In this document: positions 2,835 through 62,661 of the stretch, piece by piece
Numbering within the stretch: the stretch's first letter is position 1
Layout: every line of letters starts with the position of its first letter
Assembly: GCA_009914755.4 (NCBI GenBank)
Contig: CP086569.2
Location: 37,728,001-37,792,000, forward strand
Direction of reading: 5' to 3'
Source: the human T2T-CHM13v2.0 reference genome, Homo sapiens
Length of the DNA stretch: 64,000 nt
Translations under genes and position numbers: made by a program
The notes under the pieces: generated by a model
What the model was told of the DNA's origin: nothing
The model's input: the letters and a program-made list of their open reading frames with translations, nothing else
Databases searched by the model: none

Positions 2835-2877
2835 GAATTCATTGGAATGGAAGGGAATGTAGTGTAATGGACAGGCC
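2835..2877. other. The only EcoRI site (GAATTC, 2835..2840) and the only HaeIII site (GGCC, 2874..2877) in the unit, recurring once per ~3.56 kb
   Basis: Context is ggaattcattggaatggaagggaatgtagtgtaatggacaggcctgg. It is present in every complete unit at the same offset. This is consistent with the classical single-cut 3.56-kb restriction ladder of DYZ1. Confidence 0.7.
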
Positions 2878-39184: not shown

Positions 39185-42100
39185 GAAGGTTCTCGAAAAT
39201 AATGGAATCGAATGGAATGGAATTGAATGGAACGGAATAGAGTCGAATGGAATTGAATGGAATGGAATGGACTAGAGTGAAATGGAATCGAACCACAAGG
39301 AATGGACAGGAATAGAATGGTCTCGAATTGAATGGAACCGTATGGAATGGCATCAAACGGAATGGAATGGACAGCCACGGAATGGAATGCACTCGAATGC
39401 AATGGAGTCGAAACTAATGGACTGGAATAGAATGGACTCGACTGGTACGGACTCCAATGGAATGGAATCGAATGGAAGGGAATCGAACGGAATGGACTCG
39501 AAGGGAAAAGACTGCAATGGAAAGGTCTCGAATGGAATGGAAATTAATGGAATGGAATGGAATCGAATGAAATGGAGTCAAAAGGAATGGAATCGAATGG
39601 CAAGAAATCGAATGTAATGGAATCGCAAGGAATTGATGTGAACGGAACGGAATGGAATGGAATCCAAAGGAATGGAATAGAATGGAATGGAATCGAATGG
39701 AAAGGACTCGAATGGAAATCACTCGAATAGAATGCAATTTAATAAAATAGGATCAAATGTAATGGAATGGAATGGAAAGGAATCGAAACGAAAGGAATGG
39801 AGACAGATGGAATGGAATGGAACAGAGAGCAATGGTATAGAATGGAATGGAATCATCTGGAATGGAATTGAATGGAATGGAATAATATGAAATGGAATGG
39901 AATGGAATGGAATGGAATGCCCTTGAATTAAATGGACTGGAATGGAATGGACTCGAACAGAGTGGAATGGAAAGTGTTGAGATAGAATGGAATGGACTCC
40001 TTTGGAATGGTCTAGTATGCAATGCAATCGACTGTCAGGGAATCAAAAGGAATGAAATCGAATGGATTGGACTGGAATGCAATGGACTCGAATAGATTGG
40101 AAACGGAATGCAAAGGAATGGAATGGAATAGTATGGAATGGAATGGAAAGGAATGGAGTGGAATAGACTAGAGTGGAATGGAATGGACTGGAAAGCAATG
40201 GACTGGAATGGAACTTTCTTGGATGGACTGGAATCAAACGGAATGGAATGCAATGCAATCAAATGGCATGGAATAAAATAGAATGAAAGAGAATCAAATG
40301 GAATTGAATCGAATGGAATCGAATGGATTGTAAAGGAATAGAATGGAATGGAATGGAATTGACTCAAATGGAATGGACTAGAATGGAATGGATTCGAATG
40401 GAAGGCAAAGGAATGGAATCTATTGGAATGGACTGTAATGGAATGGAATGGAAGGGATTGGAATGGACTCGAATGGAATGGACTGCAATAGAAAGGATTC
40501 GAATGGAATGAAAAAGAATTGAATGGAATAGAACAGAATGGAATCAAATCGAATGAAATGGAATGGAATAGAAAGGAATGGAATGAAATGGAATGGAAAG
40601 GATTCGAGTGGAATGCAATCGAATGGAATGGAATCGAACGGAATGGAATAAAATGGAAGAAAACTGGCAAGAAATGGAATCGAAATGAATGGAGTGTTAT
40701 GGAACGGACTCAAAAGGAATTGAATGTAATAGAATGGAGTGGAGTGGACTCGAATATAATGGACTGGAATGGAATGAAATCACATGGAATGGGAACGAAT
40801 GGAATGGAATGGAAAGGAATGGAATCGAATGGAAAGGAATCGAATGGAAGGGAATGAAATTGAATCAACAGGAATGGAAGGGAATAGAATAGACGGTAAT
40901 GGAATGGACTCGAATAGAATGGACACGAATGCTCAAATTGAATGGATTCGAATGGAATGGAAACGAAAGGAATGTCATCGAATGGAATTGAATCGATTGG
41001 AATGAAATCGCATAGAATGGAGTGGAATCAAATGGAATTGAATCGAAAGGAAAGGAAGCGAATGGACTGAAATGAAATGGAATGGAATTGAATGGAAAGT
41101 AATGCAATGGAATAGAATGGAACGAAATTTCACGGAATGGAATCAAACTGAATGGAATCAAATCAATGGAATCTAATCAAATGGAATGGAAAGGAATTGA
41201 ATGGAGTAGATTGGATTGGATGGGATTGGAATGAAATGTACTGGAAAGGACTCGAATTTCATGAAACGGAATGGAATGAATTGGAACGGAATGGACTCGA
41301 ATGGAATGGAATGTCATGGAATGGCATCGAATGGAATGGCATCAAATGGAATGGAATCGAATGCAATGGAATGTTATGGAATGGAATGGAATGCATTGGA
41401 ATGGAATGTCCTCTAATGGAATGGATTCGAGTGGAATGGAATCGAATATAATGGAGTCGAATGAAATGGAATTGAAAGGAATGGGATCGAATAGAATGGA
41501 ATATACTGGAATGTAATGTAATGAACACGAATGTAATTGACTGGAATGGAATGTACATGAATGGAAGGTAATCGAATGGAAAGTGATCCAATGGAATAGA
41601 ATCTAATGCAATAAAACCGAATCAGATAGAGTAGAATGTAATGGAATGGAGTGCAGTGCAATGGAATGGAATGGAATTGAATGCAATGGAATGGAATGGA
41701 ATGGAATGGAATGGAATGGATAGTAATGGACTGGAGTGAAATGGACTGGAAAGGAATGGACTCAAATTGAAAGGGCTCGAAAGGAATGGAGTCAAATGGA
41801 ATGGTCTGGAATGGAATGAACACGAATGTAATGCAATCCAATAGAATGGAATCGAATGGCATGGAATATAAAGAAATGGAATCGAAGAGAATGGAAACAA
41901 ATGGAATGGAATTGAATGGAATGGAATTGAATGGAATGGGAACGAATGGAGTGAAATTGTATGAAGTAGAAGGGAATAGAATGGAATGCAAGCGAAAGGA
42001 AAGGAATGGATTGGAATGGAATGGAATTCATTGGAATGGAAGGGAATGTAGTGTAATGGACAGGCCTGGAATAAAGTGGAATGCTACGGTCTCGAATGGA

Positions 42101-42718
42101 ATAAAAATGTATGGAATGGAATGCAATGAAACGGAATCGAATGTCATAGAATGTAATGGAATGCAACACAATGGAATCCAAAATCATTGACTGGAAAGGC
42201 TGGGTGTCGAAAGGAATTGACTCCAATGGAATGGAATCGAATGGAATGGAAGTGAATAGAATCGAACTAAATCGAATGGAATGGAATTGATAGGAACGGA
42301 ATGGAAAGGAATGCAATGATTTGGCATGGAATGGAATCGAATGGCATCGAATGGAATGGAATGGAATGCAATGGAATGGAATGTATTAGAATGTAATGAA
42401 CTTTAATGGAATGTACTCGAATGGATTCGACTGGAATGGAATGTTCTGGAAGTGAATGGACTCCAATGGAATGGATTCAAAAGGAATGGAATCGTACGGA
42501 ATGGAATCTAATGGAATGGAATTAAATGGAAACGAATCAAATTGAATAGCACGGAATTGAATTGAATGGAATGGAATGCAATGGAATCTAATGAAACGGA
42601 AAGGAAAGGAATGGAATGGAATGGAATGGGCTGGAATGGAAAGGAATCGAAACGAATGGAATGGAATCGAACTGAAGAGACTGGAATGGAATGCACTGGA
42701 ATGGAAGGGAGTGTAATG
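39185..42718 (+). repeat. HOR unit U12 (3534 bp), B-type, with a contracted (GGAAT)n tract
   Basis: Anchor at 39185 and 42719. The pure pentamer run at about 41683 to 41722 is roughly 30 bp shorter than the homologous run in U11 (about 38124 to 38192). Confidence 0.9.
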
Positions 42719-45700
42719 GAAGGTTCTCGAAAATAATGGAATCGAATGGAATGGAATTGAATGGAACGGAATAGAGTCGAATGGAATTGAATGGAATGGA
42801 ATGGACTAGAGTGAAATGGAATCGAACCACAAGGAATGGACAGGAATAGAATGGTCTCGAATTGAATGGAACCGTATGGAATGGCATCAAACGGAATGGA
42901 ATGGACAGCCACGGAATGGAATGCACTCGAATGCAATGGAGTCGAAACTAATGGACTGGAATAGAATGGACTCGACTGGTACGGACTCCAATGGAATGGA
43001 ATCGAATGGAAGGGAATCGAACGGAATGGACTCGAAGGGAAAAGACTGCAATGGAAAGGTCTCGAATGGAATGGAAATTAATGGAATGGAATGGAATCGA
43101 ATGAAATGGAGTCAAAAGGAATGGAATCGAATGGCAAGAAATCGAATGTAATGGAATCGCAAGGAATTGATGTGAACGGAACGGAATGGAATGGAATCCA
43201 AAGGAATGGAATAGAATGGAATGGAATCGAATGGAAAGGACTCGAATGGAAATCACTCGAATAGAATGCAATTTAATAAAATAGGATCAAATGTAATGGA
43301 ATGGAATGGAAAGGAATCGAAACGAAAGGAATGGAGACAGATGGAATGGAATGGAACAGAGAGCAATGGTATAGAATGGAATGGAATCATCTGGAATGGA
43401 ATTGAATGGAATGGAATAATATGAAATGGAATGGAATGGAATGGAATGGAATGCCCTTGAATTAAATGGACTGGAATGGAATGGACTCGAACAGAGTGGA
43501 ATGGAAAGTGTTGAGATAGAATGGAATGGACTCCTTTGGAATGGTCTAGTATGCAATGCAATCGACTGTCAGGGAATCAAAAGGAATGAAATCGAATGGA
43601 TTGGACTGGAATGCAATGGACTCGAATAGATTGGAAACGGAATGCAAAGGAATGGAATGGAATAGTATGGAATGGAATGGAAAGGAATGGAGTGGAATAG
43701 ACTAGAGTGGAATGGAATGGACTGGAAAGCAATGGACTGGAATGGAACTTTCTTGGATGGACTGGAATCAAACGGAATGGAATGCAATGCAATCAAATGG
43801 CATGGAATAAAATAGAATGAAAGAGAATCAAATGGAATTGAATCGAATGGAATCGAATGGATTGTAAAGGAATAGAATGGAATGGAATGGAATTGACTCA
43901 AATGGAATGGACTAGAATGGAATGGATTCGAATGGAAGGCAAAGGAATGGAATCTATTGGAATGGACTGTAATGGAATGGAATGGAAGGGATTGGAATGG
44001 ACTCGAATGGAATGGACTGCAATAGAAAGGATTCGAATGGAATGAAAAAGAATTGAATGGAATAGAACAGAATGGAATCAAATCGAATGAAATGGAATGG
44101 AATAGAAAGGAATGGAATGAAATGGAATGGAAAGGATTCGAGTGGAATGCAATCGAATGGAATGGAATCGAACGGAATGGAATAAAATGGAAGAAAACTG
44201 GCAAGAAATGGAATCGAAATGAATGGAGTGTTATGGAACGGACTCAAAAGGAATTGAATGTAATAGAATGGAGTGGAGTGGACTCGAATATAATGGACTG
44301 GAATGGAATGAAATCACATGGAATGGGAACGAATGGAATGGAATGGAAAGGAATGGAATCGAATGGAAAGGAATCGAATGGAAGGGAATGAAATTGAATC
44401 AACAGGAATGGAAGGGAATAGAATAGACGGTAATGGAATGGACTCGAATAGAATGGACACGAATGCTCAAATTGAATGGATTCGAATGGAATGGAAACGA
44501 AAGGAATGTCATCGAATGGAATTGAATCGATTGGAATGAAATCGCATAGAATGGAGTGGAATCAAATGGAATTGAATCGAAAGGAAAGGAAGCGAATGGA
44601 CTGAAATGAAATGGAATGGAATTGAATGGAAAGTAATGCAATGGAATAGAATGGAACGAAATTTCACGGAATGGAATCAAACTGAATGGAATCAAATCAA
44701 TGGAATCTAATCAAATGGAATGGAAAGGAATTGAATGGAGTAGATTGGATTGGATGGGATTGGAATGAAATGTACTGGAAAGGACTCGAATTTCATGAAA
44801 CGGAATGGAATGAATTGGAACGGAATGGACTCGAATGGAATGGAATGTCATGGAATGGCATCGAATGGAATGGCATCAAATGGAATGGAATCGAATGCAA
44901 TGGAATGTTATGGAATGGAATGGAATGCATTGGAATGGAATGTCCTCTAATGGAATGGATTCGAGTGGAATGGAATCGAATATAATGGAGTCGAATGAAA
45001 TGGAATTGAAAGGAATGGGATCGAATAGAATGGAATATACTGGAATGTAATGTAATGAACACGAATGTAATTGACTGGAATGGAATGTACATGAATGGAA
45101 GGTAATCGAATGGAAAGTAATCCAATGGAATAGAATCTAATGCAATAAAACCGAATCAGATAGAGTAGAATGTAATGGAATGGAGTGCAGTGCAATGGAA
45201 TGGAATGGAATTGAATGCAATGGAATGGAATGGAATGGAATGGAATGGAATGGAATGGAATGGAATGGAATGGTATGGAATGGATAGTAATGGACTGGAG
45301 TGAAATGGACTGGAAAGGAATGGACTCAAATTGAAAGGGCTCGAAAGGAATGGAGTCAAATGGAATGGTCTGGAATGGAATGAACACGAATGTAATGCAA
45401 TCCAATAGAATGGAATCGAATGGCATGGAATATAAAGAAATGGAATCGAAGAGAATGGAAACAAATGGAATGGAATTGAATGGAATGGAATTGAATGGAA
45501 TGGGAACGAATGGAGTGAAATTGTATGCAGTAGAAGGGAATAGAATGGAATGCAAGCGAAAGGAAAGGAATGGATTGGAATGGAATGGAATTCATTGGAA
45601 TGGAAGGGAATGTAGTGTAATGGACAGGCCTGGAATAAAGTGGAATGCTACGGTCTCGAATGGAATAAAAATGTATGGAATGGAATGCAATGAAACGGAA

Positions 45701-46282
45701 TCGAATGTCATAGAATGTAATGGAATGCAACAAAATGGAATCCAAAATCATTGACTGGAAAGGCTGGGTGTCGAAAGGAATTGACTCCAATGGAATGGAA
45801 TCGAATGGAATAGAAGTGAATAGAATCGAACTAAATCGAATGGAATGGAATTGATAGGAACGGAATGGAAAGGAATGCAATGATTTGGCATGGAATGGAA
45901 TCGAATGGCATCGAATGGAATGGAATGGAATGCAATGGAATGGAATGTATTAGAATGTAATGAACTTTAATGGAATGTACTCGAATGGATTCGACTGGAA
46001 TGGAATGTTCTGGAAGTGAATGGACTCCAATGGAATGGATTCAAAAGGAATGGAATCGTACGGAATGGAATCTAATGGAATGGAATTAAATGGAAATGAA
46101 TCAAATTGAATAGCACGGAATTGAATTGAATGGAATGGAATGCAATGGAATCTAATGAAACGGAAAGGAAAGGAATGGAATGGAATGGAATGGGCTGGAA
46201 TGGAAAGGAATCGAAACGAATGGAATGGAATCGAACTGAAGAGACTGGAATGGAATGCACTGGAATGGAAGGGAGTGTAATG
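42719..46282 (+). repeat. HOR unit U13 (3564 bp), B-type
   Basis: Anchor at 42719 and 46283. Nearly identical to U12 and U9. Confidence 0.9.
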
Positions 46283-49200
46283 GAAGGTTCTCGAAAAAAA
46301 TGGAATGGAATGGAATGGAATTGAATGGAACGGAATAGAGTCGAATGGAATTGAATGGAATGGAATGGACTAGAGTGAAATGGAATCGAACCACAAGGAA
46401 TGGACAGGAATAGAATGGTCTCGAATTGAATGGAATCGTATGGAATGGCATCAAACGGAATGGAATGGACAGCCACGGAATGGAATGCACTCGAATGCAA
46501 TGGAGTCGAAACTAATGGACTGGAATAGAATGGACTCGACTGGTACGGACTCCAATGGAATGGAATCGAATGGAAGGGAATCGAACGGAATGGACTCGAA
46601 GGGAAAAGACTGCAATGGAAAGGTCTCGAATGGAATGGAAATTAATGGAATGGAATGGAATCGAATGAAATGGAGTCAAAAGGAATGGAATCGAATGGCA
46701 AGAAATCGAATGTAATGGAATCGCAAGGAATTGATGTGAACGGAACGGAATGGAATGGAATCCAAAGGAATGGAATAGAATGGAATGGAATCGAATGGAA
46801 AGGACTCGAATGGAAATCACTCGAATAGAATGCAATTTAATAAAATAGGATCAAATGTAATGGAATGGAATGGAAAGGAATCGAAACGAAAGGAATGGAG
46901 ACAGATGGAATGGAATGGAACAGAGAGCAATGGTATAGAATGGAATGGAATCATCTGGAATGGAATTGAATGGAATGGAATAATATGAAATGGAATGGAA
47001 TGGAATGGAATGGAATGCCCTTGAATTAAATGGACTGGAATGGAATGAACTCGAACAGAGTGGAATGGAAAGTGTTGAGATAGAATGGAATGGACTCCTT
47101 TGGAATGGTCTAGTATGCAATGCAATCGACTGTCAGGGAATCAAAAGGAATGTAATCGAATGGATTGGACTGGAATGCAATGGACTCGAATAGATTGGAA
47201 ACGGAATGCAAAGGAATGGAATGGAATAGTATGGAATGGAATGGAAAGGAATGGAGTGGAATAGACTAGAGTGGAATGGAATGGACTGGAAAGCAATGGA
47301 CTGGAATGGAACTTTCTTGGATGGACTGGAATCAAACGGAATGGAATACAATGCAATCAAATGGCATGGAATAAAATAGAATGAAAGAGAATCAAATGGA
47401 ATTGAATCGAATGGAATCGAATGGATTGTAAAGGAATAGAATGGAATGGAATGGAATTGACTCAAATGGAATGGACTAGAATGGAATGGATTCGAATGGA
47501 AGGCAAAGGAATGGAATCTATTGGAATGGACTGTAATGGAATGGAATGGAAGGGATTGGAATGGACTCGAATGGAATGGACTGCAATAGAAAGGATTCGA
47601 ATGGAATGAAAAAGAATTGAATGGAATAGAACAGAATGGAATCAAATCGAATGAAATGGAATGGAATAGAAAGGAATGGAATGAAATGGAATGGAAAGGA
47701 TTCGAATGGAATGCAATCGAATGGAATGGAATCGAACGGAATGGAATAAAATGGAAGAAAACTGGCAAGAAATGGAATCGAAATGAATGGAGTGTTATGG
47801 AACGGACTCAAAAGGAATTGAATGTAATAGAATGGAGTGGAGTGGACTCGAATATAATGGACTGGAATGGAATGAAATCACATGGAATGGGAACGAATGG
47901 AATGGAATGGAAAGGAATGGAATCGAATGGAAAGGAATCGAATGGAAGGGAATGAAATTGAATCAACAGGAATGGAAGGGAATAGAATAGACGGTAATGG
48001 AATGGACTCGAATAGAATGGACACGAATGCTCAAATTGAATGGATTCGAATGGAATGGAAACGAAAGGAATGTCATCGAATGGAATTGAATCGATTGGAA
48101 TGAAATCGCATAGAATGGAGTGGAATCAAATGGAATTGAATCGAAAGGAAAGGAAGCGAATGGACTGAAATGAAATGGAATGGAATTGAATGGAAAGTAA
48201 TGCAATGGAATAGAATGGAACGAAATTTCACGGAATGGAATCAAACTGAATGGAATCAAATCAATGGAATCTAATCAAATGGAATGGAAAGGAATTGAAT
48301 GGAGTAGATTGGATTGGATGGGATTGGAATGAAATGTACTGGAAAGGACTCGAATTTCATGAAACGGAATGGAATGAATTGGAACGGAATGGACTCGAAT
48401 GGAATGGAATGTCATGGAATGGCATCGAATGGAATGGCATCAAATGGAATGGAATCGAATGCAATGGAATGTTATGGAATGGAATGGAATGCATTGGAAT
48501 GGAATGTCCTCTAATGGAATGGATTCGAGTGGAATGGAATCGAATATAATGGAGTCGAATGAAATGGAATTGAAAGGAATGGGATCGAATAGAATGGAAT
48601 ATACTGGAATGTAATGTAATGAACACGAATGTAATTGACTGGAATGGAATGTACATGAATGGAAGGTAATCGAATGGAAAGTAATCCAATGGAATAGAAT
48701 CTAATGCAATAAAACCGAATCAGATAGAGTAGAATGTAATGGAATGGAGTGCAGTGCAATGGAATGGAATGGAATTGAATGCAATGGAATGGAATGGAAT
48801 GGAATGGAATGGAATGGAATGGAATGGTATGGAATGGATAGTAATGGACTGGAGTGAAATGGACTGGAAAGGAATGGACTCAAATTGAAAGGGCTCGAAA
48901 GGAATGGAGTCAAATGGAATGGTCTGGAATGGAATGAACACGAATGTAATGCAATCCAATAGAATGGAATCGAATGGCATGGAATATAAAGAAATGGAAT
49001 CGAAGAGAATGGAAACAAATGGAATGGAATTGAATGGAATGGAATTGAATGGAATGGGAACGAATGGAGTGAAATTGTATGCAGTAGAAGGGAATAGAAT
49101 GGAATGCAAGCGAAAGGAAAGGAATGGATTGGAATGGAATGGAATTCATTGGAATGGAAGGGAATGTAGTGTAATGGACAGGCCTGGAATAAAGTGGAAT

Positions 49201-49364
49201 GCTACGGTCTCGAATGGAATAAAAATGTATGGAATGGAATGCAATGAAACGGAATCGAATGTCATAGAATGTAATGGAATGCAACAAAATGGAATCCAAA
49301 ATCATTGACTGGAAAGGCTGGGTGTCGAAAGGAATTGACTCCAATGGAATGGAATCGAATGGAA
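46283..49364 (+). repeat. HOR unit U14, B-type, truncated at its 3' end by a deletion (about the last 470 bp is missing)
   Basis: Anchor at 46283. Homology to the other units ends at 49359 to 49369, where the sequence jumps to unit offset ~948. Confidence 0.8.
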
Positions 49365-49369
49365 TGGAA
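49359..49369 (+). other. Deletion junction removing about 1.4 kb across a unit boundary, with 11 bp of microhomology (atggaatggaa)
   Basis: The left flank matches unit offset ~3098 (compare 38700 to 38719). The right flank matches unit offset ~948 (compare 47231). The homologous ORF start spacing 48904 to 51032 is 2128 bp instead of ~3564. Confidence 0.8.
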
Positions 49370-51964
49370 TGGAAAGGAATGGAGTGGAATAGACTAGAGT
49401 GGAATGGAATGGACTGGAAAGCAATGGACTGGAATGGAACTTTCTTGGATGGACTGGAATCAAACGGAATGGAATACAATGCAATCAAATGGCATGGAAT
49501 AAAATAGAATGAAAGAGAATCAAATGGAATTGAATCGAATGGAATCGAATGGATTGTAAAGGAATAGAATGGAATGGAATGGAATTGACTCAAATGGAAT
49601 GGACTAGAATGGAATGGATTCGAATGGAAGGCAAAGGAATGGAATCTATTGGAATGGACTGTAATGGAATGGAATGGAAGGGATTGGAATGGACTCGAAT
49701 GGAATGGACTGCAATAGAAAGGATTCGAATGGAATGAAAAAGAATTGAATGGAATAGAACAGAATGGAATCAAATCGAATGAAATGGAATGGAATAGAAA
49801 GGAATGGAATGAAATGGAATGGAAAGGATTCGAATGGAATGCAATCGAATGGAATGGAATCGAACGGAATGGAATAAAATGGAAGAAAACTGGCAAGAAA
49901 TGGAATCGAAATGAATGGAGTGTTATGGAACGGACTCAAAAGGAATTGAATGTAATAGAATGGAGTGGAGTGGACTCGAATATAATGGACTGGAATGGAA
50001 TGAAATCACATGGAATGGGAACGAATGGAATGGAATGGAAAGGAATGGAATCGAATGGAAAGGAATCGAATGGAAGGGAATGAAATTGAATCAACAGGAA
50101 TGGAAGGGAATAGAATAGACGGTAATGGAATGGACTCGAATAGAATGGACACGAATGCTCAAATTGAATGGATTCGAATGGAATGGAAACGAAAGGAATG
50201 TCATCGAATGGAATTGAATCGATTGGAATGAAATCGCATAGAATGGAGTGGAATCAAATGGAATTGAATCGAAAGGAAAGGAAGCGAATGGACTGAAATG
50301 AAATGGAATGGAATTGAATGGAAAGTAATGCAATGGAATAGAATGGAACGAAATTTCACGGAATGGAATCAAACTGAATGGAATCAAATCAATGGAATCT
50401 AATCAAATGGAATGGAAAGGAATTGAATGGAGTAGATTGGATTGGATGGGATTGGAATGAAATGTACTGGAAAGGACTCGAATTTCATGAAACGGAATGG
50501 AATGAATTGGAACGGAATGGACTCGAATGGAATGGAATGTCATGGAATGGCATCGAATGGAATGGCATCAAATGGAATGGAATCGAATGCAATGGAATGT
50601 TATGGAATGGAATGGAATGCATTGGAATGGAATGTCCTCTAATGGAATGGATTCGAGTGGAATGGAATCGAATATAATGGAGTCGAATGAAATGGAATTG
50701 AAAGGAATGGGATCGAATAGAATGGAATATACTGGAATGTAATGTAATGAACACGAATGTAATTGACTGGAATGGAATGTACATGAATGGAAGGTAATCG
50801 AATGGAAAGTAATCCAATGGAATAGAATCTAATGCAATAAAACCGAATCAGATAGAGTAGAATGTAATGGAATGGAGTGCAGTGCAATGGAATGGAATGG
50901 AATTGAATGCAATGGAATGGAATGGAATGGAATGGAATGGAATGGAATGGAATGGTATGGAATGGATAGTAATGGACTGGAGTGAAATGGACTGGAAAGG
51001 AATGGACTCAAATTGAAAGGGCTCGAAAGGAATGGAGTCAAATGGAATGGTCTGGAATGGAATGAACACGAATGTAATGCAATCCAATAGAATGGAATCG
51101 AATGGCATGGAATATAAAGAAATGGAATCGAAGAGAATGGAAACAAATGGAATGGAATTGAATGGAATGGAATTGAATGGAATGGGAACGAATGGAGTGA
51201 AATTGTATGCAGTAGAAGGGAATAGAATGGAATGCAAGCGAAAGGAAAGGAATGGATTGGAATGGAATGGAATTCATTGGAATGGAAGGGAATGTAGTGT
51301 AATGGACAGGCCTGGAATAAAGTGGAATGCTACGGTCTCGAATGGAATAAAAATGTATGGAATGGAATGCAATGAAACGGAATCGAATGTCATAGAATGT
51401 AATGGAATGCAAAAAAATGGAATCCAAAATCATTGACTGGAAAGGCTGGGTGTCGAAAGGAATTGACTCCAATGGAATGGAATCGAATGGAATGGAAGTG
51501 AATAGAATCGAACTAAATCGAATGGAATGGAATTGATAGGAACGGAATGGAAAGGAATGCAATGATTTGGCATGGAATGGAATCGAATGGCATCGAATGG
51601 AATGGAATGGAATGCAATGGAATGGAATGTATTAGAATGTAATGAACTTTAATGGAATGTACTCGAATGGATTCGACTGGAATGGAATGTTCTGGAAGTG
51701 AATGGACTCCAATGGAATGGATTCAAAAGGAATGGAATCGTACGGAATGGAATCTAATGGAATGGAATTAAATGGAAATGAATCAAATTGAATAGCACGG
51801 AATTGAATTGAATGGAATGGAATGCAATGGAATCTAATGAAACGGAAAGGAAAGGAATGGAATGGAATGGAATGGGCTGGAATGGAAAGGAATCGAAACG
51901 AATGGAATGGAATCGAACTGAAGAGACTGGAATGGAATGCACTGGAATGGAAGGGAGTGTAATG
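49365..51964 (+). repeat. HOR unit U15, partial (the first ~948 bp is missing)
   Basis: The sequence after 49369 matches unit offset ~948 onward (compare 47231 onward). The next anchor is at 51965. Confidence 0.8.
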
Positions 51965-51977
51965 GAAGGTTGTCGAA
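51965..51977. promoter_or_regulatory. Mutated HSE-like anchor GAAggTTGtcGAA (central TTC changed to TTG) in subfamily-C units U16, U18 and U19 (also at 59083 and 62662)
   Basis: A single C-to-G change relative to the anchor in the other 15 units. U17 at 55539 retains TTC. Confidence 0.35.
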
Positions 51978-52257
51978 AAAAATGGAATCGAATGGAATGG
52001 AATTGAATGGAACGGAATAGAGTCGAATGGAATTGAATGGAATGGAATGGACTAGAGTGAAATGGAATCGAACCACAAGGAATGGACAGGAATAGAATGG
52101 TCTCGAATTGAATGGAATCGTATGGAATGGCATCAAACGGAATGGAATGGACAGCCACGGAATGGAATGCACTCGAATGCAATGGAGTCGAAACTAATGG
52201 ACTGGAATAGAATGGACTCGACTGGTACGGACTCCAATGGAATGGAATCGAATGGAA

Positions 52258-52287
52258 GGGAATCGAACGGAAGGGAATCGAACGGAA
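52258..52287 (+). repeat. 15-bp tandem duplication (gggaatcgaacggaa x2) diagnostic of subfamily C; repeated at 55832..55861, 59386..59415 and 62955..62984
   Basis: Units U1 to U15 have a single copy (for example ggaagggaatcgaacggaatggactcg at about 3826). The duplication extends the artefact ORF from 111 to 116 aa (…NGRESNGRESNGMDS…). Confidence 0.85.
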
Positions 52288-55200
52288 TGGACTCGAAGGG
52301 AAAAGACTGCAATGGAAAGGTCTCGAATGGAATGGAAATTAATGGAATGGAATGGAATCGAATGAAATGGAGTCAAAAGGAATGGAATCGAATGGCAAGA
52401 AATCTAATGTAATGGAATCGCCAGGAATTGATGTGAACGGAACGGAATGGAATGGAATCCAAAGGAATGGAATAGAATGGAATGGAATCGAATGGAAAGG
52501 ACTCCAATGGAAATCACTCGAATAGAATGCAATTTAATAAAATAGGATCAAATGTAATGGAATGGAATGGAAAGGAATCGAAACGAAAGGAATGGAGACA
52601 GATGGAATGGAATGGAACAGAGAGCAATGGTATAGAATGGAATGGAATCATCTGGAATGGAATTGAATGGAATGGAATAATATGAAATGGAATGGAATGG
52701 AATGGAGTGGAATGCCCTTGAATTAAATGGACTGGAATGGAATGGACTCAAACAGAGTGGAATGGAAAGTGTGGAGATAGAATGGAATGAACTCCTTTGG
52801 AATGGTGTAGTATGCAATGCAATCGACTGGCAGGGAATCAAAAGAAATGTAATCGAATGGATTGGACTGGAATGCAATGGACTCGAATAGATTGGAAACG
52901 GAATGCAAAGGAATGGAATGGAATAGTATGGAATGCAATGGAAGGGAATGGAGTGGAATAGACTAGAGTGGAATGGAATGGACTGGAAAGCAATGGACTG
53001 GAATGGAACTTTCTTGGATGGACTGGAATCAAACGGAATGGAATGCAATGCAATCAAATGGCATGGAATAAAATAGAATGAAAGAGAATCAAATGGAATT
53101 GAATCGAATGGAATCGAATGGATTGGAAATGAATAGAATGGAATGGAATGGAATTGACTCAAATGGAATGGACTAGAATGGAATGGATTCGAATGGAAGG
53201 CAAAGGAATGGAATCTATTGGAATGGACTGTAATGGAATGGAATGGAAGGGATTGGAATGGACTCGAATGGAATGGACTGCAATAGAAAGGATTCGAATG
53301 GAATGAAAAAGAATTGAATGGAATAGAACAGAATGGAATCAAATCGAATGAAATGGAATGGAATAGAAAGCAATGGAATGAAATGGAATGGAAAGGATTC
53401 GAATGGAATGCAATCGAATGGAATGGAATTGAACGGAATGGAATAAAATGGAAGAAAACTGGCAAGAAATGGAATCGAAATGAATGGAGTGTTATGGAAC
53501 GGACTCAAACGGAATTGAATGTAATAGAATGGAGTGGAGTGGACTCGAATATAATGGACTGGAATGGAATGAAATCACATGGAATGGGAACGAATGGAAT
53601 GGAATGGAAAGGAATGGAATCGAATGGAAAGGAATCGAATGGAAGGGAATGAAATTGAATCAACAGGAATGGAAGGGAATAGAATAGACTGTAATGGAAT
53701 GGACTCGAATAGAATGGACACGAATGCTCAAATTAAATGGACTCGAATGGAATGGAAACGAAAAGAATGTCATCGAATGGAATTGAATCGATTGGAATGA
53801 AATCGCATAGAATGGAGTGGAATCAAATGGAATTGAATCGAAAGGAAAGGAAGCGAATGGACTGAAATGAAATGGAATGGAATTGTATGGAAAGTAATGC
53901 AATGGAATAGAATGGAACGAAATTTCACGGAATGGAATCAAACTGAATGGAATCAAATCAATGGAATCAAATCAAATGGAATGGAAAGGAATTGAATGGA
54001 GTAGATGGGATTGGATGGGATTGGAATGAAATGTACTGGAAAGGACTCGAATTTCATGAAACGGAATGGAATGAATTGGAACGGAATGGACTCGAATGGA
54101 ATGGAATGTCATGGGATGGCATCAAATGGAATGGCATCAAATGGAATGGAATCGAATGCAATGGAATGCTGTGGAATGGAATGGAATGCATTGGAATGGA
54201 ATGTCCTCTAATGGAATGGATTCGAGTGGAATGGAATTGAATATAATGGAGTCGAATGAAATGGAATTGAAAGGAATGGGATCGAATACAATGGAATATA
54301 CTGGAATGTAACGTAATGAACTCGAATGTAATTGACTGGAATGGAATGTACATGAATGGAATGTAATCGAATGGAAAGTAATCCAATGGAATAGAATCTA
54401 ATGCAATAAAATCGACTCAGATAGAGTAGAATGTAATGGAATGGAGTGCAGTGCAATGGAATGGAATGGAATGGAATGCAATGGAATGGAATGGAATGGA
54501 ATGGAATGGAATGGAATGGGATGGAATGGTATGGAATGGATAGTAATAGACTGGAGTGAAATGGACTGGAAAGGAATGGACTCAAATTGAAAGGGCTCGA
54601 AAGGAATGGAGTCAAATGGAATGGTCTGGAATGGAATGAACACGAATGTAATGCAACCCAATAGAATGGAATCGAATGGCATGGAATATAAAGAAATGGA
54701 ATCGAAGAGAATGGAAACAAATGGAATGGAATTGAATGGAATGGAATTGAATGGAATGGGAACGAATGGAGTGAAATTGTATGCAGTAGAAGAGAATAGA
54801 ATGGAATGCAAGCGAAAGGAAAGGAATGGATTGGAATGGAATGGAATTCATTGGAATGGAAGGGAATGTAGTGTAATGGACAGGCCTGGAATAAAGTGGA
54901 ATGCTACGGTCTCGAATGGAATAAAAATGTATGGAATGGAATGCAATGAAACGGAATCGAATGTCATAGAATGTAATGGAATGCAACACAATGGAATCCA
55001 ATATCATTGACTGGAAAGGCTGGGTGTCGAAAGGAATTGACTCCAATGGAATGGAATCGAATGGAATGGAAGTGAATAGAATCGAACTAAATCGAATGGA
55101 ATGGAATTGATAGGAACGGAATGGAAAGGAATGCAATGATTTGGCATGGAATGGAATCGAATGGCATCGAATGGAATGGAATGGAATGCAATGGAATGGA

Positions 55201-55538
55201 ATGTATTAGAATGTAATGAACTTTAATGGAATGTACTCGAATGGATTCGACTGGAATGGAATGTTCTGGAAGTGAATGGACTCCAATGGAATGGATTCAA
55301 AAGGAATGGAATCGTACGGAATGGAATCTAATGGAATGGAATTAAATGGAAATGAATCAAATTGAATAGCACGGAATTGAATTGAATGGAATGGAATGCA
55401 ATGGAATCTAATGAAACGGAAAGGAAAGGAATGGAATGGAATGGAATGGGCTGGAATGGAAAGGAATCGAAACGAATGGAATGGAATCGAACTGAAGAGA
55501 CTGGAATGGAATGCACTGGAATGGAAGGGAGTGTAATG

Positions 55539-58500
55539 GAAGGTTCTCGAAAAAAATGGAATCGAATGGAATGGAATTGAATGGAACGGAATAGAGTCGA
55601 ATGGAATTGAATGGAATGGAATGGACTAGAGTGAAATGGAATCGAACCACAAGGAATGGACAGGAATAGAATGGTCTCGAATTGAATGGAATCGTATGGA
55701 ATGGCATCAAACGGAATGGAATGGACAGCCACGGAATGGAATGCACTCGAATGCAATGGAGTCGAAACTAATGGACTGGAATAGAATGGACTCGACTGGT
55801 ACGGACTCCAATGGAATGGAATCGAATGGAAGGGAATCGAACGGAAGGGAATCGAACGGAATGGACTCGAAGGGAAAAGACTGCAATAGAAAGGTCTCGA
55901 ATGGAATGGAAATTAATGGAATGGAATGGAATCGAATGAAATGGAGTCAAAAGGAATGGAATCGAATGGCAAGAAATCTAATGTAATGGAATCGCCAGGA
56001 ATTGATGTGAACGGAACGGAATGGAATGGAATCCAAAGGAATGGAATAGAATGGAATGGAATCGAATGGAAAGGACTCGAATGGAAATCACTCGAATAGA
56101 ATGCAATTTAATAAAATAGGATCAAATGTAATGGAATGGAATGGAAAGGAATCGAAACGAAAGGAATGGAGACAGATGGAATGGAATGGAACAGAGAGCA
56201 ATGGTATAGAATGGAATGGAATCATCTGGAATGGAATTGAATGGAATGGAATAATATGAAATGGAATGGAATGGAATGGAATGGAATGCCCTTGAATTAA
56301 ATGGACTGGAATGGAATGGACTCAAACAGAGTGGAATGGAAAGTGTGGAGATAGAATGGAATGAACTCCTTTGGAATGGTGTAGTATGCAATGCAATCGA
56401 CTGGCAGGGAATCAAAAGGAATGTAATCGAATGGATTGGACTGGAATGCAATGGACTCGAATAGATTGGAAACGGAATGCAAAGGAATGGAATGGAATAG
56501 TATGGAATGCAATGGAAGGGAATGGAGTGGAATAGACTAGAGTGGAATGGAATGGACTGGAAAGCAATGGACTGGAATGGAACTTTCTTGGATGGACTGG
56601 AACCAAACGGAATGGAATGCAATGCAATCAAATGGCATGGAATAAAATAGAATGAAAGAGAATCAAATGGAATTGAATCGAATGGAATCGAATGGATTGG
56701 AAAGGAATAGAATGGAATGGAATGGAATTGACTCAAATGGAATGGACTAGAATGGAATGGATTCGAATGGAAGGCAAAGGAATGGAATCTATTGGAATGG
56801 ACTGTAATGGAATGGAATGGAAGGGATTGGAATGGACTCGAATGGAATGGACTGCAATAGAAAGGATTCGAATGGAATGAAAAAGAATTGAATGGAATAG
56901 AACAGAATGGAATCAAATCGAATGAAATGGAATGGAATAGAAAGGAATGGAATGAAATGGAATGGAAAGGATTCGAATGGAATGCAATCGAATGGAATGG
57001 AATCGAACGGAATGGAATAAAATGGAAGAAAACTGGCAAGAAATGGAATCGAAATGAATGGAGTGTTATGGAACGGACTCAAAAGGAATTGAATGTAATA
57101 GAATGGAGTGGAGTGGACTCGAATATAATGGACTGGAATGGAATGAAATCACATGGAATGGGAACGAATGGAATGGAATGGAAAGGAATGGAATCGAATG
57201 GAAAGGAATCGAATGGAAGGGAATGAAATTGAATCAACAGGAATGGAAGGGAATAGAATAGACTGTAATGGAATGGACTCGAATAGAATGGACACGAATG
57301 CTCAAATTAAATGGACTCGAATGGAATGGAAACGAAAGGAATGTCATCGAATGGAATTGAATCGATTGGAATGAAATCGCATAGAATGGAGTGGAATCAA
57401 ATGGAATTGAATCGAAAGGAAAGGAAGCGAATGGACTGAAATGAAATGGAATGGAATTGAATGGAAAGTAATGCAATGGAATAGAATGGAACGAAATTTC
57501 ACGGAATGGAATCAAACTGAATGGAATCAAATCAATGGAATCAAATCAAATGGAATGGAAAGGAATTGAATGGAGTAGATGGGATTGGATGGGATTGGAA
57601 TGAAATGTACTGGAAAGGACTCGAATTTCATGAAACGGAATGGAATGAATTGGAACGGAATGGACTCGAATGGAATGGAATGTCATGGGATGGCATCAAA
57701 CGGAATGGCATCAAATGGAATGGAATCGAATGCAATGGAATGCTATGGAATGGAATGGAATGCATTGGAATGGAATGTCCTCTAATGGAATGGATTCGAG
57801 TGGAATGGAATTGAATATAATGGAGTCGAATGAAATGGAATTGAAAGGAATGGGATCGAATACAATGGAATATACTGGAATGTAACGTAATGAACTCGAA
57901 TGTAATTGACTGGAATGGAATGTACATGAATGGAATGTAATCGAATGGAAAGTAATCCAATGGAATAGAATCTAATGCAATAAAATCGACTCAGATAGAG
58001 TAGAATGTAATGGAATGGAGTGCAGTGCAATGGAATGGAATGGAATGGAATGCAATGGAATGGAATGGAATGGAATGGGATGGAATGGTATGGAATGGAT
58101 AGTAATGGACTGGAGTGAAATGGACTGGAAAGGAATGGACTCAAATTGAAAGGGCACGAAAGGAATGGAGTCAAATGGAATGGTCTGGAATGGAATGAAC
58201 ACGAATGTAATGCAACCCAATAGAATGGAATCGAATGGCATGGAATATAAAGAAATGGAATCGAAGAGAATGGAAACAAATGGAATGGAATTGAATGGAA
58301 TGGGAACGAATGGAGTGAAATTGTATGCAGTAGAAGTGAATAGAATGGAATGCAAGCGAAAGGAAAGGAATGGATTGGAATGGAATGGAATTCATTGGAA
58401 TGGAAGGGAATGTAGTGTAATGGACAGGCCTGGAATAAAGTGGAATGCTACGGTCTCGAATGGAATAAAAATGTATGGAATGGAATGCAATGAAACGGAA

Positions 58501-59082
58501 TCGAATGTCATAGAATGTAATGGAATGCAAAAAAATGGAATCCAAAATCATTGACTGGAAAGGCTGGGTGTCGAAAGGAATTGACTCCAATGGAATGGAA
58601 TCGAATGGAATGGAAGTGAATAGAATCGAACTAAATCGAATGGAATGGAATTGATAGGAACGGAATGGAAAGGAATGCAATGATTTGGCATGGAATGGAA
58701 TCGAATGGCATCGAATGGAATGGAATGGAATGCAATGGAATGGAATGTATTAGAATGTAATGAACTTTAATGGAATGTACTCGAATGGATTCGACTGGAA
58801 TGGAATGTTCTGGAAGTGAATGGACTCCAATGGAATGGATTCAAAAGGAATGGAATCGTACGGAATGGAATCTAATGGAATGGAATTAAATGGAAATGAA
58901 TCAAATTGAATAGCACGGAATTGAATTGAATGGAATGGAATGCAATGGAATCTAATGAAACGGAAAGGAAAGGAATGGAATGGAATGGAATGGGCTGGAA
59001 TGGAAAGGAATCGAAACGAATGGAATGGAATCGAACTGAAGAGACTGGAATGGAATGCACTGGAATGGAAGGGAGTGTAATG
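55539..59082 (+). repeat. HOR unit U17 (3544 bp), subfamily C
   Basis: A canonical anchor is at 55539. The 15-bp duplication is at 55832..55861. Several 15-bp deletions relative to its neighbours (129-aa versus 134-aa artefact ORF at 58165) account for the shorter length. Confidence 0.9.
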
Positions 59083-62000
59083 GAAGGTTGTCGAAAAAAA
59101 TGGAATCGAATGGAATGGAATTGAATGGAACGGAATAGAGTCGAATAGAATTGAATGGAATGGAATGGACTAGAGTGAAATGGAATCGAACCACAAGGAA
59201 TGGACAGGAATAGAATGGTCTCGAATTGAATGGAATCGTATGGAATGGCATCAAACGGAATGGAATGGACAGCCACGGAATGGAATGCACTCGAATGCAA
59301 TGGAGTCGAAACAAATGGACTGGAATAGAATGGACTCGACTGGTACGGACTCCAATGGAATGGAATCGAATGGAAGGGAATCGAACGGAAGGGAATCGAA
59401 CGGAATGGACTCGAAGGGAAAAGACTGCAATGGAAAGGTCTCGAATGGAATGGAAATTAATGGAATGGAATGGAATCGAATGAAATGGAGTCAAAAGGAA
59501 TGGAATCGAATGGCAAGAAATCTAATGTAATGGAATCGCCAGGAATTGATGCGAACGGAACGGAATGGAATGGAATCCAAAGGAATGGAATAGAATGGAA
59601 TGGAATCGAATGGAAAGGACTCCAATGGAAATCACTCGAATAGAATGCAATTTAATAAAATAGGATCAAATGTAATGGAATGGAATGGAAAGGAATCGAA
59701 ACGAAAGGAATGGAGACAGATGGAATGGAATGGAACAGAGAGCAATGGTATAGAATGGAATGGAATCATCTGGAATGGAATTGAATGGAATGGAATAATA
59801 TGAAATGGAATGGAATGGAATGGAGTGGAATGCCCTTGAATTAAATGGACTGGAATGGAATGGACTCAAACAGAGTGGAATGGAAAGTGTGGAGATAGAA
59901 TGGAATGAACTCCTTTGGAATGGTGTAGTATGCAATGCAATCGACTGGCAGGGAATCAAAAGAAATGTAATCGAATGGATTGGACTGGAATGCAATGGAC
60001 TCGAATAGATTGGAAACGGAATGCAAAGGAATGGAATGGAATAGTATGGAATGCAATGGAAGGGAATGGAGTGGAATAGACTAGAGTGGAATGGAATGGA
60101 CTGGAAAGCAATGGACTGGAATGGAACTTTCTTGGATGGACTGGAATCAAACGGAATGGAATGCAATGCAATCAAATGGCATGGAATAAAATAGAATGAA
60201 AGAGAATCAAATGGAATTGAATCGAATGGAATCGAATGGATTGGAAATGAATAGAATGGAATGGAATGGAATTGACTCAAATGGAATGGACTAGAATGGA
60301 ATGGATTCGAATGGAAGGCAAAGGAATGGAATCTATTGGAATGGACTGTAATGGAATGGAATGGAAGGGATTGGAATGGACTCGAATGGAATGGACTGCA
60401 ATAGAAAGGATTCGAATGGAATGAAAAAGAATTGAATGGAATAGAACAGAATGGAATCAAATCGAATGAAATGGAATGGAATAGAAAGGAATGGAATGAA
60501 ATGGAATGGAAAGGATTCGAATGGAATGCAATCGAATGGAATGGAATCGAACGGAATGGAATAAAATGGAAGAAAACTGGCAAGAAATGGAATCGAAATG
60601 AATGGAGTGTTATGGAACGGACTCAAACGGAATTGAATGTAATAGAATGGAGTGGAGTGGACTCGAATATAATGGACTGGAATGGAATGAAATCACATGG
60701 AATGGGAACGAATGGAATGGAATGGAAAGGAATGGAATCGAATGGAAAGGAATCGAATGGAAGGGAATGAAATTGAATCAACAGGAATGGAAGGGAATAG
60801 AATAGACTGTAATGGAATGGACTCGAATAGAATGGACACGAATGCTCAAATTAAATGGACTCGAATGGAATGGAAACGAAAGGAATGTCATCGAATGGAA
60901 TTGAATCGATTGGAATGAAATCGCATAGAATGGAGTGGAATCAAATGGAATTGAATCGAAAGGAAAGGAAGCGAATGCACTGAAATGAAATGGAATGGAA
61001 TTGTATGGAAAGTAATGCAATGGAATAGAATGGAACGAAATTTCACGGAATGGAATCAAACTGAATGGAATCAAATCAATGGAATCAAATCAAATGGAAT
61101 GGAAAGGAATTGAATGGAGTAGATGGGATTGGATGGGATTGGAATGAAATGTACTGGAAAGGACTCGAATTTCATGAAACGGAATGGAATGAATTGGAAC
61201 GGAATGGACTCGAATGGAATGGAATGTCATGGGATGGCATCAAATGGAATGGCATCAAATGGAATGGAATCGAATGCAATGGAATGCTGTGGAATGGAAT
61301 GGAATGCATTGGAATGGAATGTCCTCTAATGGAATGGATTCGAGTGGAATGGAATTGAATATAATGGAGTCGAATGAAATGGAATTGAAAGGAATGGGAT
61401 CGAATACAATGGAATATACTGGAATGTAACGTAATGAACTCGAATGTAATTGACTGGAATGGAATGTACATGAATGGAATGTAATCGAATGGAAAGTAAT
61501 CCAATGGAATAGAATCTAATGCAATAAAATCGACTCAGATAGAGTAGAATGTAATGGAATGGAGTGCAGTGCAATGGAATGGAATGGAATGGAATGCAAT
61601 GGAATGGAATGGAATGGAATGGAATGGAATGGAATGGAATGGGATGGAATGGTATGGAATGGATAGTAATAGACTGGAGTGAAATGGACTGGAAAGGAAT
61701 GGACTCAAATTGAAAGGGCTCGAAAGGAATGGAGTCAAATGGAATGGTCTGGAATGGAATGAACACGAATGTAATGCAACCCAATAGAATGGAATCGAAT
61801 GGCATGGAATATAAAGAAATGGAATCGAAGAGAATGGAAACAAATGGAATGGAATTGAATGGAATGGAATTGAATGGAATGGGAACGAATGGAGTGAAAT
61901 TGTATGCAGTAGAAGAGAATAGAATGGAATGCAAGCGAAAGGAAAGGAATGGATTGGAATGGAATGGAATTCATTGGAATGGAAGGGAATGTAGTGTAAT

Positions 62001-62661
62001 GGACAGGCCTGGAATAAAGTGGAATGCTACGGTCTCGAATGGAATAAAAATGTATGGAATGGAATGCAATGAAACGGAATCGAATGTCATAGAATGTAAT
62101 GGAATGCAAAAAAATGGAATCCAAAATCATTGACTGGAAAGGCTGGGTGTCGAAAGGAATTGACTCCAATGGAATGGAATCGAATGGAATGGAAGTGAAT
62201 AGAATCGAACTAAATCGAATGGAATGGAATTGATAGGAACGGAATGGAAAGGAATGCAATGATTTGGCATGGAATGGAATCGAATGGCATCGAATGGAAT
62301 GGAATGGAATGCAATGGAATGGAATGTATTAGAATGGAATGAACTTTAATGGAATGTACTCGAATGGATTCGACTGGAATGGAATGTTCTGGAAGTGAAT
62401 GGACTCCAATGGAATGGATTCAAAAGGAATGGAATCGTACGGAATGGAATCTAATGGAATGGAATTAAATGGAAATGAATCAAATTGAATAGCACGGAAT
62501 TGAATTGAATGGAATGGAATGCAATGGAATCTAATGAAACGGAAAGGAAAGGAATGGAATGGAATGGAATGGGCTGGAATGGAAAGGAATCGAAACGAAT
62601 GGAATGGAATCGAACTGAAGAGACTGGAATGGAATGCACTGGAATGGAAGGGAGTGTAATG
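59083..62661 (+). repeat. HOR unit U18 (3579 bp), subfamily C; copy of U16
   Basis: The anchor variant gaaggttGtcgaa is at 59083. The 15-bp duplication is at 59386..59415. Confidence 0.9.

What the first reader, a model, noticed from the sequence alone, without database searches (positions are those of the whole stretch)
51800..52600. Abrupt switch to a distinct unit subfamily (C) at ~51.9 kb
From the anchor at 51965 onward, U16, U18 and U19 carry gaaggttGtcgaa. All four C units (U16 to U19) also carry the 15-bp tandem duplication gggaatcgaacggaa, aatcTaatg, cgcCagg and gactcCaatgg, none of which occur in the 15 upstream units. The change coincides with the deletion-bearing partial unit U15. 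This looks like a boundary between two homogenisation domains, and the array is not a single well-mixed population of units.
Basis: seen in the sequence. Interest (0 to 1): 0.5.

Follow-up and report, generated by a model that had tools for sequence, protein, structure and literature searches.

The report
Local variant block in Y-chromosome DYZ1 satellite
The window is an ordinary stretch of the human Y-chromosome DYZ1 (GGAAT-type, about 3.56 kb unit) satellite, and the "switch" near 51.9 kb is a real edge of one small block of near-identical variant units among several, the patchwork already described for such arrays.

Summary
The core observation holds. Units U16-U19 (51965 to the window end) share a 15-bp extra repeat copy and 14 single-base differences that none of the 15 upstream units has at those positions. 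The change is abrupt and in register.

Three details are wrong or overstated:
- gactcCaatgg is missing in U17.
- aatctaatg and gactccaatgg are not diagnostic as bare strings; each occurs 56 times in the window.
- The odd "U15" is not at the switch. It comes from a separate out-of-register joint at 49359-49369, with 11 bp of microhomology, inside the upstream unit type. It reads better as a 2,128-bp tandem duplication than as a deletion.

The upstream units are not one family. They include at least five variant lineages, a 3-unit (10.7 kb) duplication and a 2-unit duplication. U1 alone has more private changes (21) than the C block (14).

Repeat period, single HaeIII site per unit, 38.8% GC and CpG density match published DYZ1 values. 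Human contaminant contigs in metagenomes are 99-99.8% identical, and one carries the C-type haplotype.

This is patchy local homogenisation by unequal exchange and tandem duplication, already described for Yq12. It is ordinary, and interest is low.

The parts
27..64000 (+). Uninterrupted GGAAT-type satellite array with a higher-order unit of about 3.56 kb (19 units or part-units). It is best identified as human Yq12 DYZ1 / HSat3A6.
   Evidence: TRF covers 27-64000. Unit anchors are spaced 3529-3579 bp. There is one GGCC site per unit, GC is 38.8% and CpG density is 1 per 35.5 bp. These match the DYZ1 values.
51965..64000 (+). C block: U16 (51965-55538), U17 (55539-59082), U18 (59083-62661) and U19 (62662-64000, cut by the window end). 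The sub-pattern is C1 C2 C1 C1.
   Evidence: Units are 99.3-99.9% identical to each other and 97.8-99.0% to upstream units. They share 14 fixed SNVs and a 15-bp insertion. Nine further SNVs are private to U16/18/19 and five to U17.
51219..51972 (+). Interval that contains the in-register switch from upstream type B to type C. One site tentatively narrows it to 51219-51413.
   Evidence: The last non-C state in U15 is at column 2858, position 51219. At column 3052 (51413) U15 has A, as do U17 and U18, whereas U1-14 have C. The U15 tail (columns 2859-3608) is identical to the U17 tail. The first C1 marker is at 51972 and the first fixed marker at 52254.
52243..52287 (+). 15-bp mini-tandem with three copies in C units (ggaatcgaatggaag / ggaatcgaacggaag / ggaatcgaacggaat) against two in the upstream units. 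The same feature is at about 55817, 59361 and 62940.
   Evidence: The extra copy is also seen in 4 of 39 external DYZ1 matches.
49359..49369 (+). Out-of-register joint with 11-bp microhomology (ATGGAATGGAA). Unit position about 3106 is joined to unit position about 959.
   Evidence: k-mer phase map. Three-way comparison with intact units.
47231..51497 (+). Two tandem copies at a lag of 2,128 bp (47231-49369 and 49359-51497), identical except at 49285 (C) / 51413 (A).
   Evidence: U14 and U15 differ at 0 columns over columns 978-2858, where other B units differ from U15 at 3-24 columns.
17816..39184 (+). Three-unit (about 10.7 kb) tandem duplication: U6-U7-U8 matches U9-U10-U11.
   Evidence: 99.76% identity over 10,692 aligned bases. 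The unit pairs differ by 3, 8 and 0 substitutions.
3530..17815 (+). Older two-unit duplication: U2-U3 matches U4-U5.
   Evidence: 99.61% identity over 7,143 bp. U3/U5 differ by 7 substitutions and U2/U4 by 21.

Best explanation
The window lies inside one DYZ1 (HSat3A6) array of the human Y long-arm heterochromatin. Such arrays change by unequal exchange between misaligned sister chromatids (or within one chromatid), by replication slippage and by gene conversion. Each event copies or removes one or a few whole units, so a variant unit spreads to its neighbours and forms a small clonal block.

The C block is one such block. Its founder was a DYZ1 variant that carried about 14 derived base changes and a third copy of a slippage-prone 15-bp motif. 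That variant was amplified to at least 3.4 adjacent units, and a second layer of 9 changes then spread to U16, U18 and U19. The left edge of the block is an in-register homologous joint to a different clonal block (type B) somewhere in 51219-51972.

The 2,128-bp repeat just upstream is a separate, very recent, out-of-register exchange at an 11-bp pentamer microhomology inside the B block.

Shown directly: the unit structure, the linked markers, the block pattern, the joint, and the existence of C-type sequence in another sample. Inferred: the mechanism (unequal exchange or duplication) and the Y-chromosomal location.
For: Identity:
- The period is 3.53-3.58 kb with one HaeIII site per unit. 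Fragments are 3564, 3569 or 3574 bp. GC is 38.8% and CpG density is 1 per 35.5 bp.
- The published DYZ1 values are 3,569 bp as the commonest HaeIII fragment, 38% GC and 1 CpG per 35 bp.
- 38 contaminant contigs, including one from a human gut metagenome, are up to 99.8% identical.

Clonal blocks:
- Pairwise matrix and clustering and the Mantel test, p=2e-4.
- Multi-unit duplications at 99.6-99.8% identity, with U8 identical to U11 at all aligned bases.
- Every lineage has its own linked private variants.

Polarity: external contigs almost always carry the A-type state at both the C-diagnostic and the B-diagnostic sites. C and B are therefore two independently derived, locally amplified lineages.

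C is not private to this site:
- L001 is C-type over 716 columns, with 5-7 differences to U16-19 against 22-29 to U1-14.
- L007 and L023 carry sub-blocks of C alleles.

The boundary is in register, with no indel or foreign sequence.

[quoted passage not shown] Local homogenisation within DYZ1 arrays is reported, as are de novo changes and gene conversion in Yq12.
Against: - No reference Y assembly could be searched, so the chromosomal position, the size of the C block and its distribution across Yq12 are unknown.
- The exchange mechanism is inferred from the pattern, not observed.
- The external contigs are short-read collapsed assemblies, so the linkage of markers within them may be chimeric.
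- The lack of any fixed C marker in one third of the unit (columns 2723-288) could hint at mosaic units, but it is not significant (p=0.06).
- Refining the breakpoint to 51219-51413 rests on a single site, and U16 itself carries the other state there.
Confidence: 0.8

Rival explanations
1. Assembly artefact. The B-to-C switch and the neighbouring odd-length unit are a misjoin or collapse between two different DYZ1 regions in a hard-to-assemble satellite.
For: Two irregularities lie within 2.6 kb of each other: a 2,128-bp fragment and a change of unit type. Yq12 is called among the most challenging regions to assemble.
Against: - The switch is in register and seamless.
- The joint has a clean 11-bp microhomology, typical of real slippage or exchange.
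- The two 2.1-kb copies differ at one base, so they are not a simple duplicated-read artefact.
- C-type sequence exists independently in another sample.
- No reads were available to test this.
Confidence: 0.07
2. The boundary is the edge of a large insertion or duplication that brought units from another DYZ1 array (inter-array exchange or a segmental duplication spanning blocks). It is not a small local expansion.
For: T2T-Y shows iterative duplications of up to 5 Mb spanning several DYZ1/DYZ2 blocks. The C block is open-ended at the window edge. C-type sequence exists elsewhere.
Against: Within the window, all other structure is at the 1-3 unit scale. The C block itself already shows fine-scale substructure, C1 C2 C1 C1. 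Nothing in 64 kb can separate a 12-kb block from a 1-Mb block.
Confidence: 0.1
3. Gene conversion, not unequal crossover, spread the C haplotype. Conversion tracts covering columns 289-2722 were copied into pre-existing neighbouring units, which would explain why the remaining third of the unit has no C-specific marker.
For: All 15 fixed C differences lie in columns 289-2722, and none lies in the other 1,176 columns. Gene conversion is reported among de novo Yq12 events.
Against: The empty arc is not significant once the choice of arc is allowed for (p=0.06). Four neighbouring units would each need the same tract of about 2.4 kb. Whole-unit and multi-unit duplications are directly visible elsewhere in the window.
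Confidence: 0.03

Closest known systems
DYZ1 / HSat3A6 arrays of human Yq12 (Rhie et al. 2023, doi 10.1101/2022.12.01.518724; Hallast et al. 2023, doi 10.1101/2022.12.01.518658)
   Same: - A pentamer-derived (GGAAT/CATTC) nested tandem repeat of about 3.5-3.6 kb.
- A single HaeIII site per unit, with a modal fragment of about 3,569 bp.
- 38% GC and 1 CpG per 35 bp.
- Units more than 98% identical.
- Local homogenisation and tandem duplications attributed to unequal exchange.
   Different: Nothing substantive differs. The window shows unit-by-unit detail (blocks of 1-8 units, a 2,128-bp out-of-register duplicate) that those papers summarise as heatmaps rather than describe. No DYZ2 block lies within the 64 kb, as expected for arrays of 50 kb to 3.6 Mb.
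Higher-order-repeat haplotype blocks and layered expansions in centromeric alpha satellite (established knowledge; also referred to)
   Same: Contiguous runs of units share linked variants. Boundaries between runs are sharp and in register. Neighbours are more alike than distant units.
   Different: This is a different satellite family (HSat3, not the 171-bp alpha satellite), with no kinetochore role. The blocks seen here are only a few units long.
Unequal-crossover model of tandem repeat evolution and concerted evolution (Smith 1976; Dover 1982; cited from general knowledge)
   Same: The model predicts exactly this patchwork of locally amplified variants, multi-unit super-repeats and occasional out-of-register joints at short internal homologies.
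   Different: It is a model, not a sequence family. The events themselves were not observed here.

Membership tests
DYZ1 / HSat3A6 (human Yq12 satellite) | Built from diverged GGAAT/CATTC pentamers | tested here: met
   TRF consensus units are AATGG multiples across 27-64000. The sequence reads this way directly.
DYZ1 / HSat3A6 (human Yq12 satellite) | Higher-order unit of about 3.56 kb with one HaeIII (GGCC) site; modal fragment about 3,564-3,569 bp | tested here: met
   There are 18 GGCC sites. The spacings are 3534-3579 bp (3564 five times, 3574 three times, 3569 and 3554 twice each) plus one of 2128 bp. The published modal fragment is 3,569 bp.
DYZ1 / HSat3A6 (human Yq12 satellite) | Base composition of about 38% GC and about 1 CpG per 35 bp | tested here: met
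   GC is 38.8% and CpG density is 1 per 35.5 bp, against the values.
DYZ1 / HSat3A6 (human Yq12 satellite) | High sequence identity to a DYZ1 reference or consensus | tested here: inconclusive
   - No reference sequence was available.
- Indirect support: contaminant contigs of about 3.6 kb from human-associated metagenomes and bacterial assemblies are 99-99.8% identical.
- DYZ1 PCR primers recalled from memory match once per unit and give a 154-bp product. No held paper containing them was found.
DYZ1 / HSat3A6 (human Yq12 satellite) | Male-specific, located on Yq12, alternating with DYZ2 (HSat1B) arrays | not testable with these tools
   The window is entirely one array and no human assembly can be searched. 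The absence of DYZ2 in 64 kb fits DYZ1 array sizes of 50 kb to 3.6 Mb.
Local homogenisation block (clonal run of variant units made by unequal exchange or duplication) | Contiguous units share linked derived variants absent from other units | tested here: met
   14 SNVs and one 15-bp insertion are fixed in U16-19 and absent in U1-15. They are derived relative to the external consensus. Contiguity has p=0.004.
Local homogenisation block (clonal run of variant units made by unequal exchange or duplication) | Similarity decays with distance along the array | tested here: met
   Mantel r=0.54, permutation p=2e-4. Mean divergence is 0.64-0.71% at lags 1-3 and 0.90-1.00% at lags 4-7.
Local homogenisation block (clonal run of variant units made by unequal exchange or duplication) | The boundary is in register and free of foreign sequence | tested here: met
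   U15 runs into U16 with no indel. The switch is confined to 51219-51972.
   There are at least six lineages, and types are interleaved upstream. The size of the C block is unknown because it is cut by the window end.

The most novel reading that the evidence does not exclude
The B/C boundary and the adjacent 2,128-bp out-of-register duplicate together mark the edge of a large, recent, lineage-specific Yq12 rearrangement: a block brought in from another DYZ1 array. The C haplotype would then be a usable marker for tracing such events across Y haplogroups. A weaker variant is that C units are mosaics, with only columns 289-2722 of the unit exchanged by long-tract gene conversion.
Probability: 0.1. 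Interest if true: 0.25.

Novelty: already known. Interest (0 to 1): 0.08.

Why it matters
It matters little beyond bookkeeping. The window gives a clean, unit-resolution example of how DYZ1 arrays are assembled from small clonal expansions. It shows nested layers (consensus, then C core, then C1), 2- and 3-unit super-repeats, and an out-of-register joint at a pentamer microhomology. This fits what the complete Y assemblies already report.

Practical lessons:
- Short k-mers are unsafe as subfamily markers in pentamer satellites, because they recur at other unit positions or lie one mismatch from a universal sequence.
- The 15-bp extra copy sits in a slippage-prone mini-tandem and appears on several backgrounds, so it may be recurrent.
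- Human DYZ1 contaminates bacterial genome and metagenome assemblies.

Tried and rejected
- Literature look-up of the DYZ1 PCR primers I recalled found no held paper. The primer match is therefore only memory-based support.
- Scans of viral contigs for the motif and for a C-specific 33-mer found nothing.
- An Rfam scan of 44000-64000 found no RNA family.
- The ORF list shows many ORFs of 120-330 aa on both strands. I rejected these as genes. GGAAT/ATTCC repeats are poor in stop codons, and the ORFs recur at unit period.
- I tested whether C markers avoid one third of the unit (mosaic or conversion-tract idea). The result is p=0.06, not significant.
- My first flank-probe genotyping of external contigs was unreliable at several sites because the flanks are not unique. 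I replaced it with alignment-based genotyping.
- Deletion against duplication for U14/U15 cannot be strictly separated. I favour one duplication event on parsimony, because the two copies are identical in the body where other B units differ at 3-24 columns.
- Chance was rejected as an explanation for the block.
Full report
**What the window is.**
Tandem Repeats Finder reports one uninterrupted array from 27 to 64000, built from AATGG-type pentamers. GC is flat at 38-40% with a strong G-over-C skew.

A unit-start anchor, gaaggttNtcgaa, recurs 18 times at spacings of 3529-3579 bp, with one double-length gap of 5682 bp. Each unit holds exactly one GGCC (HaeIII) site. The fragments are 3534-3579 bp, mostly 3564, 3569 or 3574, plus one of 2128 bp. 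GC is 38.8% and CpG density is 1 per 35.5 bp.

These are the figures published for the human Yq12 satellite DYZ1 (HSat3A6):
- a unit of about 3.5-3.6 kb derived from the pentamer CATTC;
- 3,569 bp as the commonest HaeIII fragment;
- 38% GC and 1 CpG per 35 bp.

Two DYZ1 PCR primers that I recalled from memory match once per unit and bracket 154 bp. I could not find a held paper that prints them, so this is only a lead.

A motif scan of public metagenome and prokaryote-genome contigs returned 38 contigs, many about 3.6 kb long. One is from a human gut metagenome, and several are in bacterial isolate assemblies. They align at 99-99.8% identity to units of this window. I read them as human male DNA contamination, and they serve as independent samples of the same satellite. 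No human assembly could be searched, so the Y location is inferred.

**Check of the observation.**
U16-U19 are 99.3-99.9% identical to each other and 97.8-99.0% identical to U1-U15.

Fourteen single-base differences and one 15-bp insertion are fixed between the two sets.

- gaaggttG is in U16, U18 and U19 only.
- The doubled 15-mer and cgcCagg are in all four C units and nowhere else.
- aatcT is in all four at that position.
- gactcC is in U16, U18 and U19 but not in U17.
- As bare strings, aatctaatg and gactccaatgg each occur 56 times in the window.
- The suggested 27-mer is one mismatch from a sequence present in 13 of the 14 upstream units that cover the site (U1 falls outside one mismatch) and again in all four C units. 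The site already holds two imperfect 15-bp copies, and C units simply have a third.

The block is not a chance pattern. The chance that 4 marked units out of 19 are contiguous is 0.004. Divergence rises with distance along the array (Mantel r=0.54, p=2e-4).

**The upstream units are not one family.**
Substitution counts and private-variant counts resolve these lineages:
- U1, with 21 private SNVs;
- U2/U4;
- U3/U5;
- U7/U10, with 10 private SNVs;
- type B = U6, 8, 9, 11-15, with 7 private SNVs;
- C, with 14 SNVs and the insertion.

The order along the array is A A A A A B A B B A B B B B B C C C C.

U6-U7-U8 is repeated as U9-U10-U11 at 99.76% identity over 10.7 kb, and U8 and U11 have no substitutions between them. 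U2-U3 is repeated as U4-U5 at 99.61%.

Inside C, U16, U18 and U19 share nine further changes that U17 lacks. The structure is therefore nested: consensus, then C core, then C1.

C is the deepest split in the window, but only just. C differs from upstream units by 36-53 substitutions, against 23-43 between A and B units.

**Polarity and occurrence elsewhere.**
At both the C-diagnostic and the B-diagnostic sites, the external contigs almost always carry the A-type state. The A type is therefore close to the general DYZ1 consensus, and B and C are separately derived, locally amplified lineages.

The C variants are not private to this place:
- Contig L001 is C-type across 716 aligned columns. It has 5-7 differences to U16-19 against 22-29 to U1-14, and it is closest to U17.
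- L007 carries the C alleles at columns 1730, 1775 and 2047, and L023 at columns 976 and 984.
- The third 15-bp copy appears in 4 of 39 external matches, three of them on non-C flanking alleles. This fits recurrent slippage at a mini-tandem, or chimeric short-read contigs.

**Where the switch is.**
There is no fixed marker between unit column 2722 and column 289 of the next unit.
- In U15 the last state that differs from C units is at column 2858 (51219).
- At column 3052 (51413) U15 has A, like U17, U18 and the external majority. U1-U14 have C there.
- The U15 tail (columns 2859-3608) is identical to the U17 tail.
- The first C1 marker is at 51972.

The switch therefore lies in 51219-51972. 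It may lie in 51219-51413, but that refinement rests on one site at which U16 itself carries the other state. The transition is in register, with no indel or foreign sequence.

**The "deletion-bearing partial unit".**
A k-mer phase map shows that U14 runs to unit position about 3106 and is then joined to position about 959. The joint is at 49359-49369, inside an 11-bp microhomology, ATGGAATGGAA.

Segments 47231-49369 and 49359-51497 are identical at a lag of 2,128 bp, except for one base: 49285 C against 51413 A. Both sides are type B. The joint lies 1.9-2.6 kb upstream of the switch, so it is a separate event.

Formally it can be read either as a deletion of about 1.43 kb across two units or as a 2,128-bp tandem duplication within one unit. 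The two copies differ at 0 columns over columns 978-2858, where other B units differ from U15 at 3-24 columns. A single recent out-of-register duplication is therefore the more parsimonious reading.

**Mechanism.**
The anatomy shows small runs of near-identical units, super-repeats of 2 and 3 units, nested layers of private variants, seamless in-register boundaries, and one out-of-register joint at a pentamer microhomology. This is what unequal sister-chromatid or intrachromatid exchange, tandem duplication and slippage produce in a non-recombining satellite (Smith 1976 model, from general knowledge).

The Y-assembly papers describe the same processes:
- Homogenisation occurs within arrays.
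- Most de novo Y variants fall in Yq12, and some are attributed to gene conversion.

The mechanism is inferred from the pattern; no exchange was observed here.

**Rivals.**
- An assembly misjoin cannot be excluded without reads. It is made unlikely by the seamless in-register boundary, the clean microhomology joint and the independent C-type contig.
- A large inter-array rearrangement whose edge happens to fall here cannot be separated from a small local block, because the C run leaves the window.
- Gene-conversion tracts covering only columns 289-2722 are suggested by the marker-free third of the unit. That gap is not significant once the choice of arc is allowed for (p=0.06).

**Other checks.**
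There is no Rfam family in 44-64 kb. Long ORFs on both strands recur with the unit period and are by-products of a stop-poor pentamer repeat.

**Verdict.**
This is a real but ordinary feature of a known satellite. Its "two domains" reading is too simple, and the link to the partial unit is adjacency only. Novelty: already known. Interest: low.

Noticed in passing
window 1-3529 (U1): U1 is the most divergent unit in the window. It has 21 private SNVs, a private 15-bp deletion at unit columns 2151-2165 and a shorter pentamer run at about columns 2551-2580. That is more private change than the C block has. It may belong to yet another block lying upstream of the window.
   Followed up: partly
window 17816-39184: Three-unit (10.7 kb) super-repeat: U6-U7-U8 matches U9-U10-U11 at 99.76% identity. 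U8 and U11 have no substitutions between them, which points to a very recent multi-unit duplication.
   Followed up: yes
unit columns about 2520-2595 (e.g. window 54479-54530 in U16): A pure (AATGG)n run inside the unit is the main source of unit-length differences (3529-3579 bp). It varies in steps of 5 bp between units, as microsatellite-like slippage would produce.
   Followed up: partly
L034, L035, L036, L037, L038 (GTDB genome contigs); L001-L033 (metagenome contigs): Human DYZ1 satellite contigs sit inside deposited bacterial isolate assemblies (Actinomadura cremea JCM 3308, two Streptomyces JCM strains, Senimuribacter sp. DSM 106208), in a Polyangiaceae MAG and in many metagenome assemblies. 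I read this as human male DNA contamination.
   Followed up: partly
L016 (contig BNJT01001888.1, 55,496 bp; only 24836-28061 held): A 55-kb metagenome contig carries DYZ1-like sequence at only about 96% identity to the window consensus. It could be a noisy long-read assembly or a more diverged DYZ1-related array. Only 3.2 kb could be read.
   Followed up: no
window 48720-55756, both strands: ORFs of 120-330 aa recur at unit period on both strands. They arise because GGAAT/ATTCC repeats are poor in stop codons and are not evidence of genes.
   Followed up: yes
window 1725-50180 (TRF rows, period 23): A 2-copy 23-bp tandem, CTCAAATAGAATGGACACGAATG, is detected by TRF once in each of the 15 upstream units. 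It drops out of the TRF list in U16-U19, where C-type substitutions at columns 1730 and 1775 lower the match. This is another visible signature of the same switch.
   Followed up: partly
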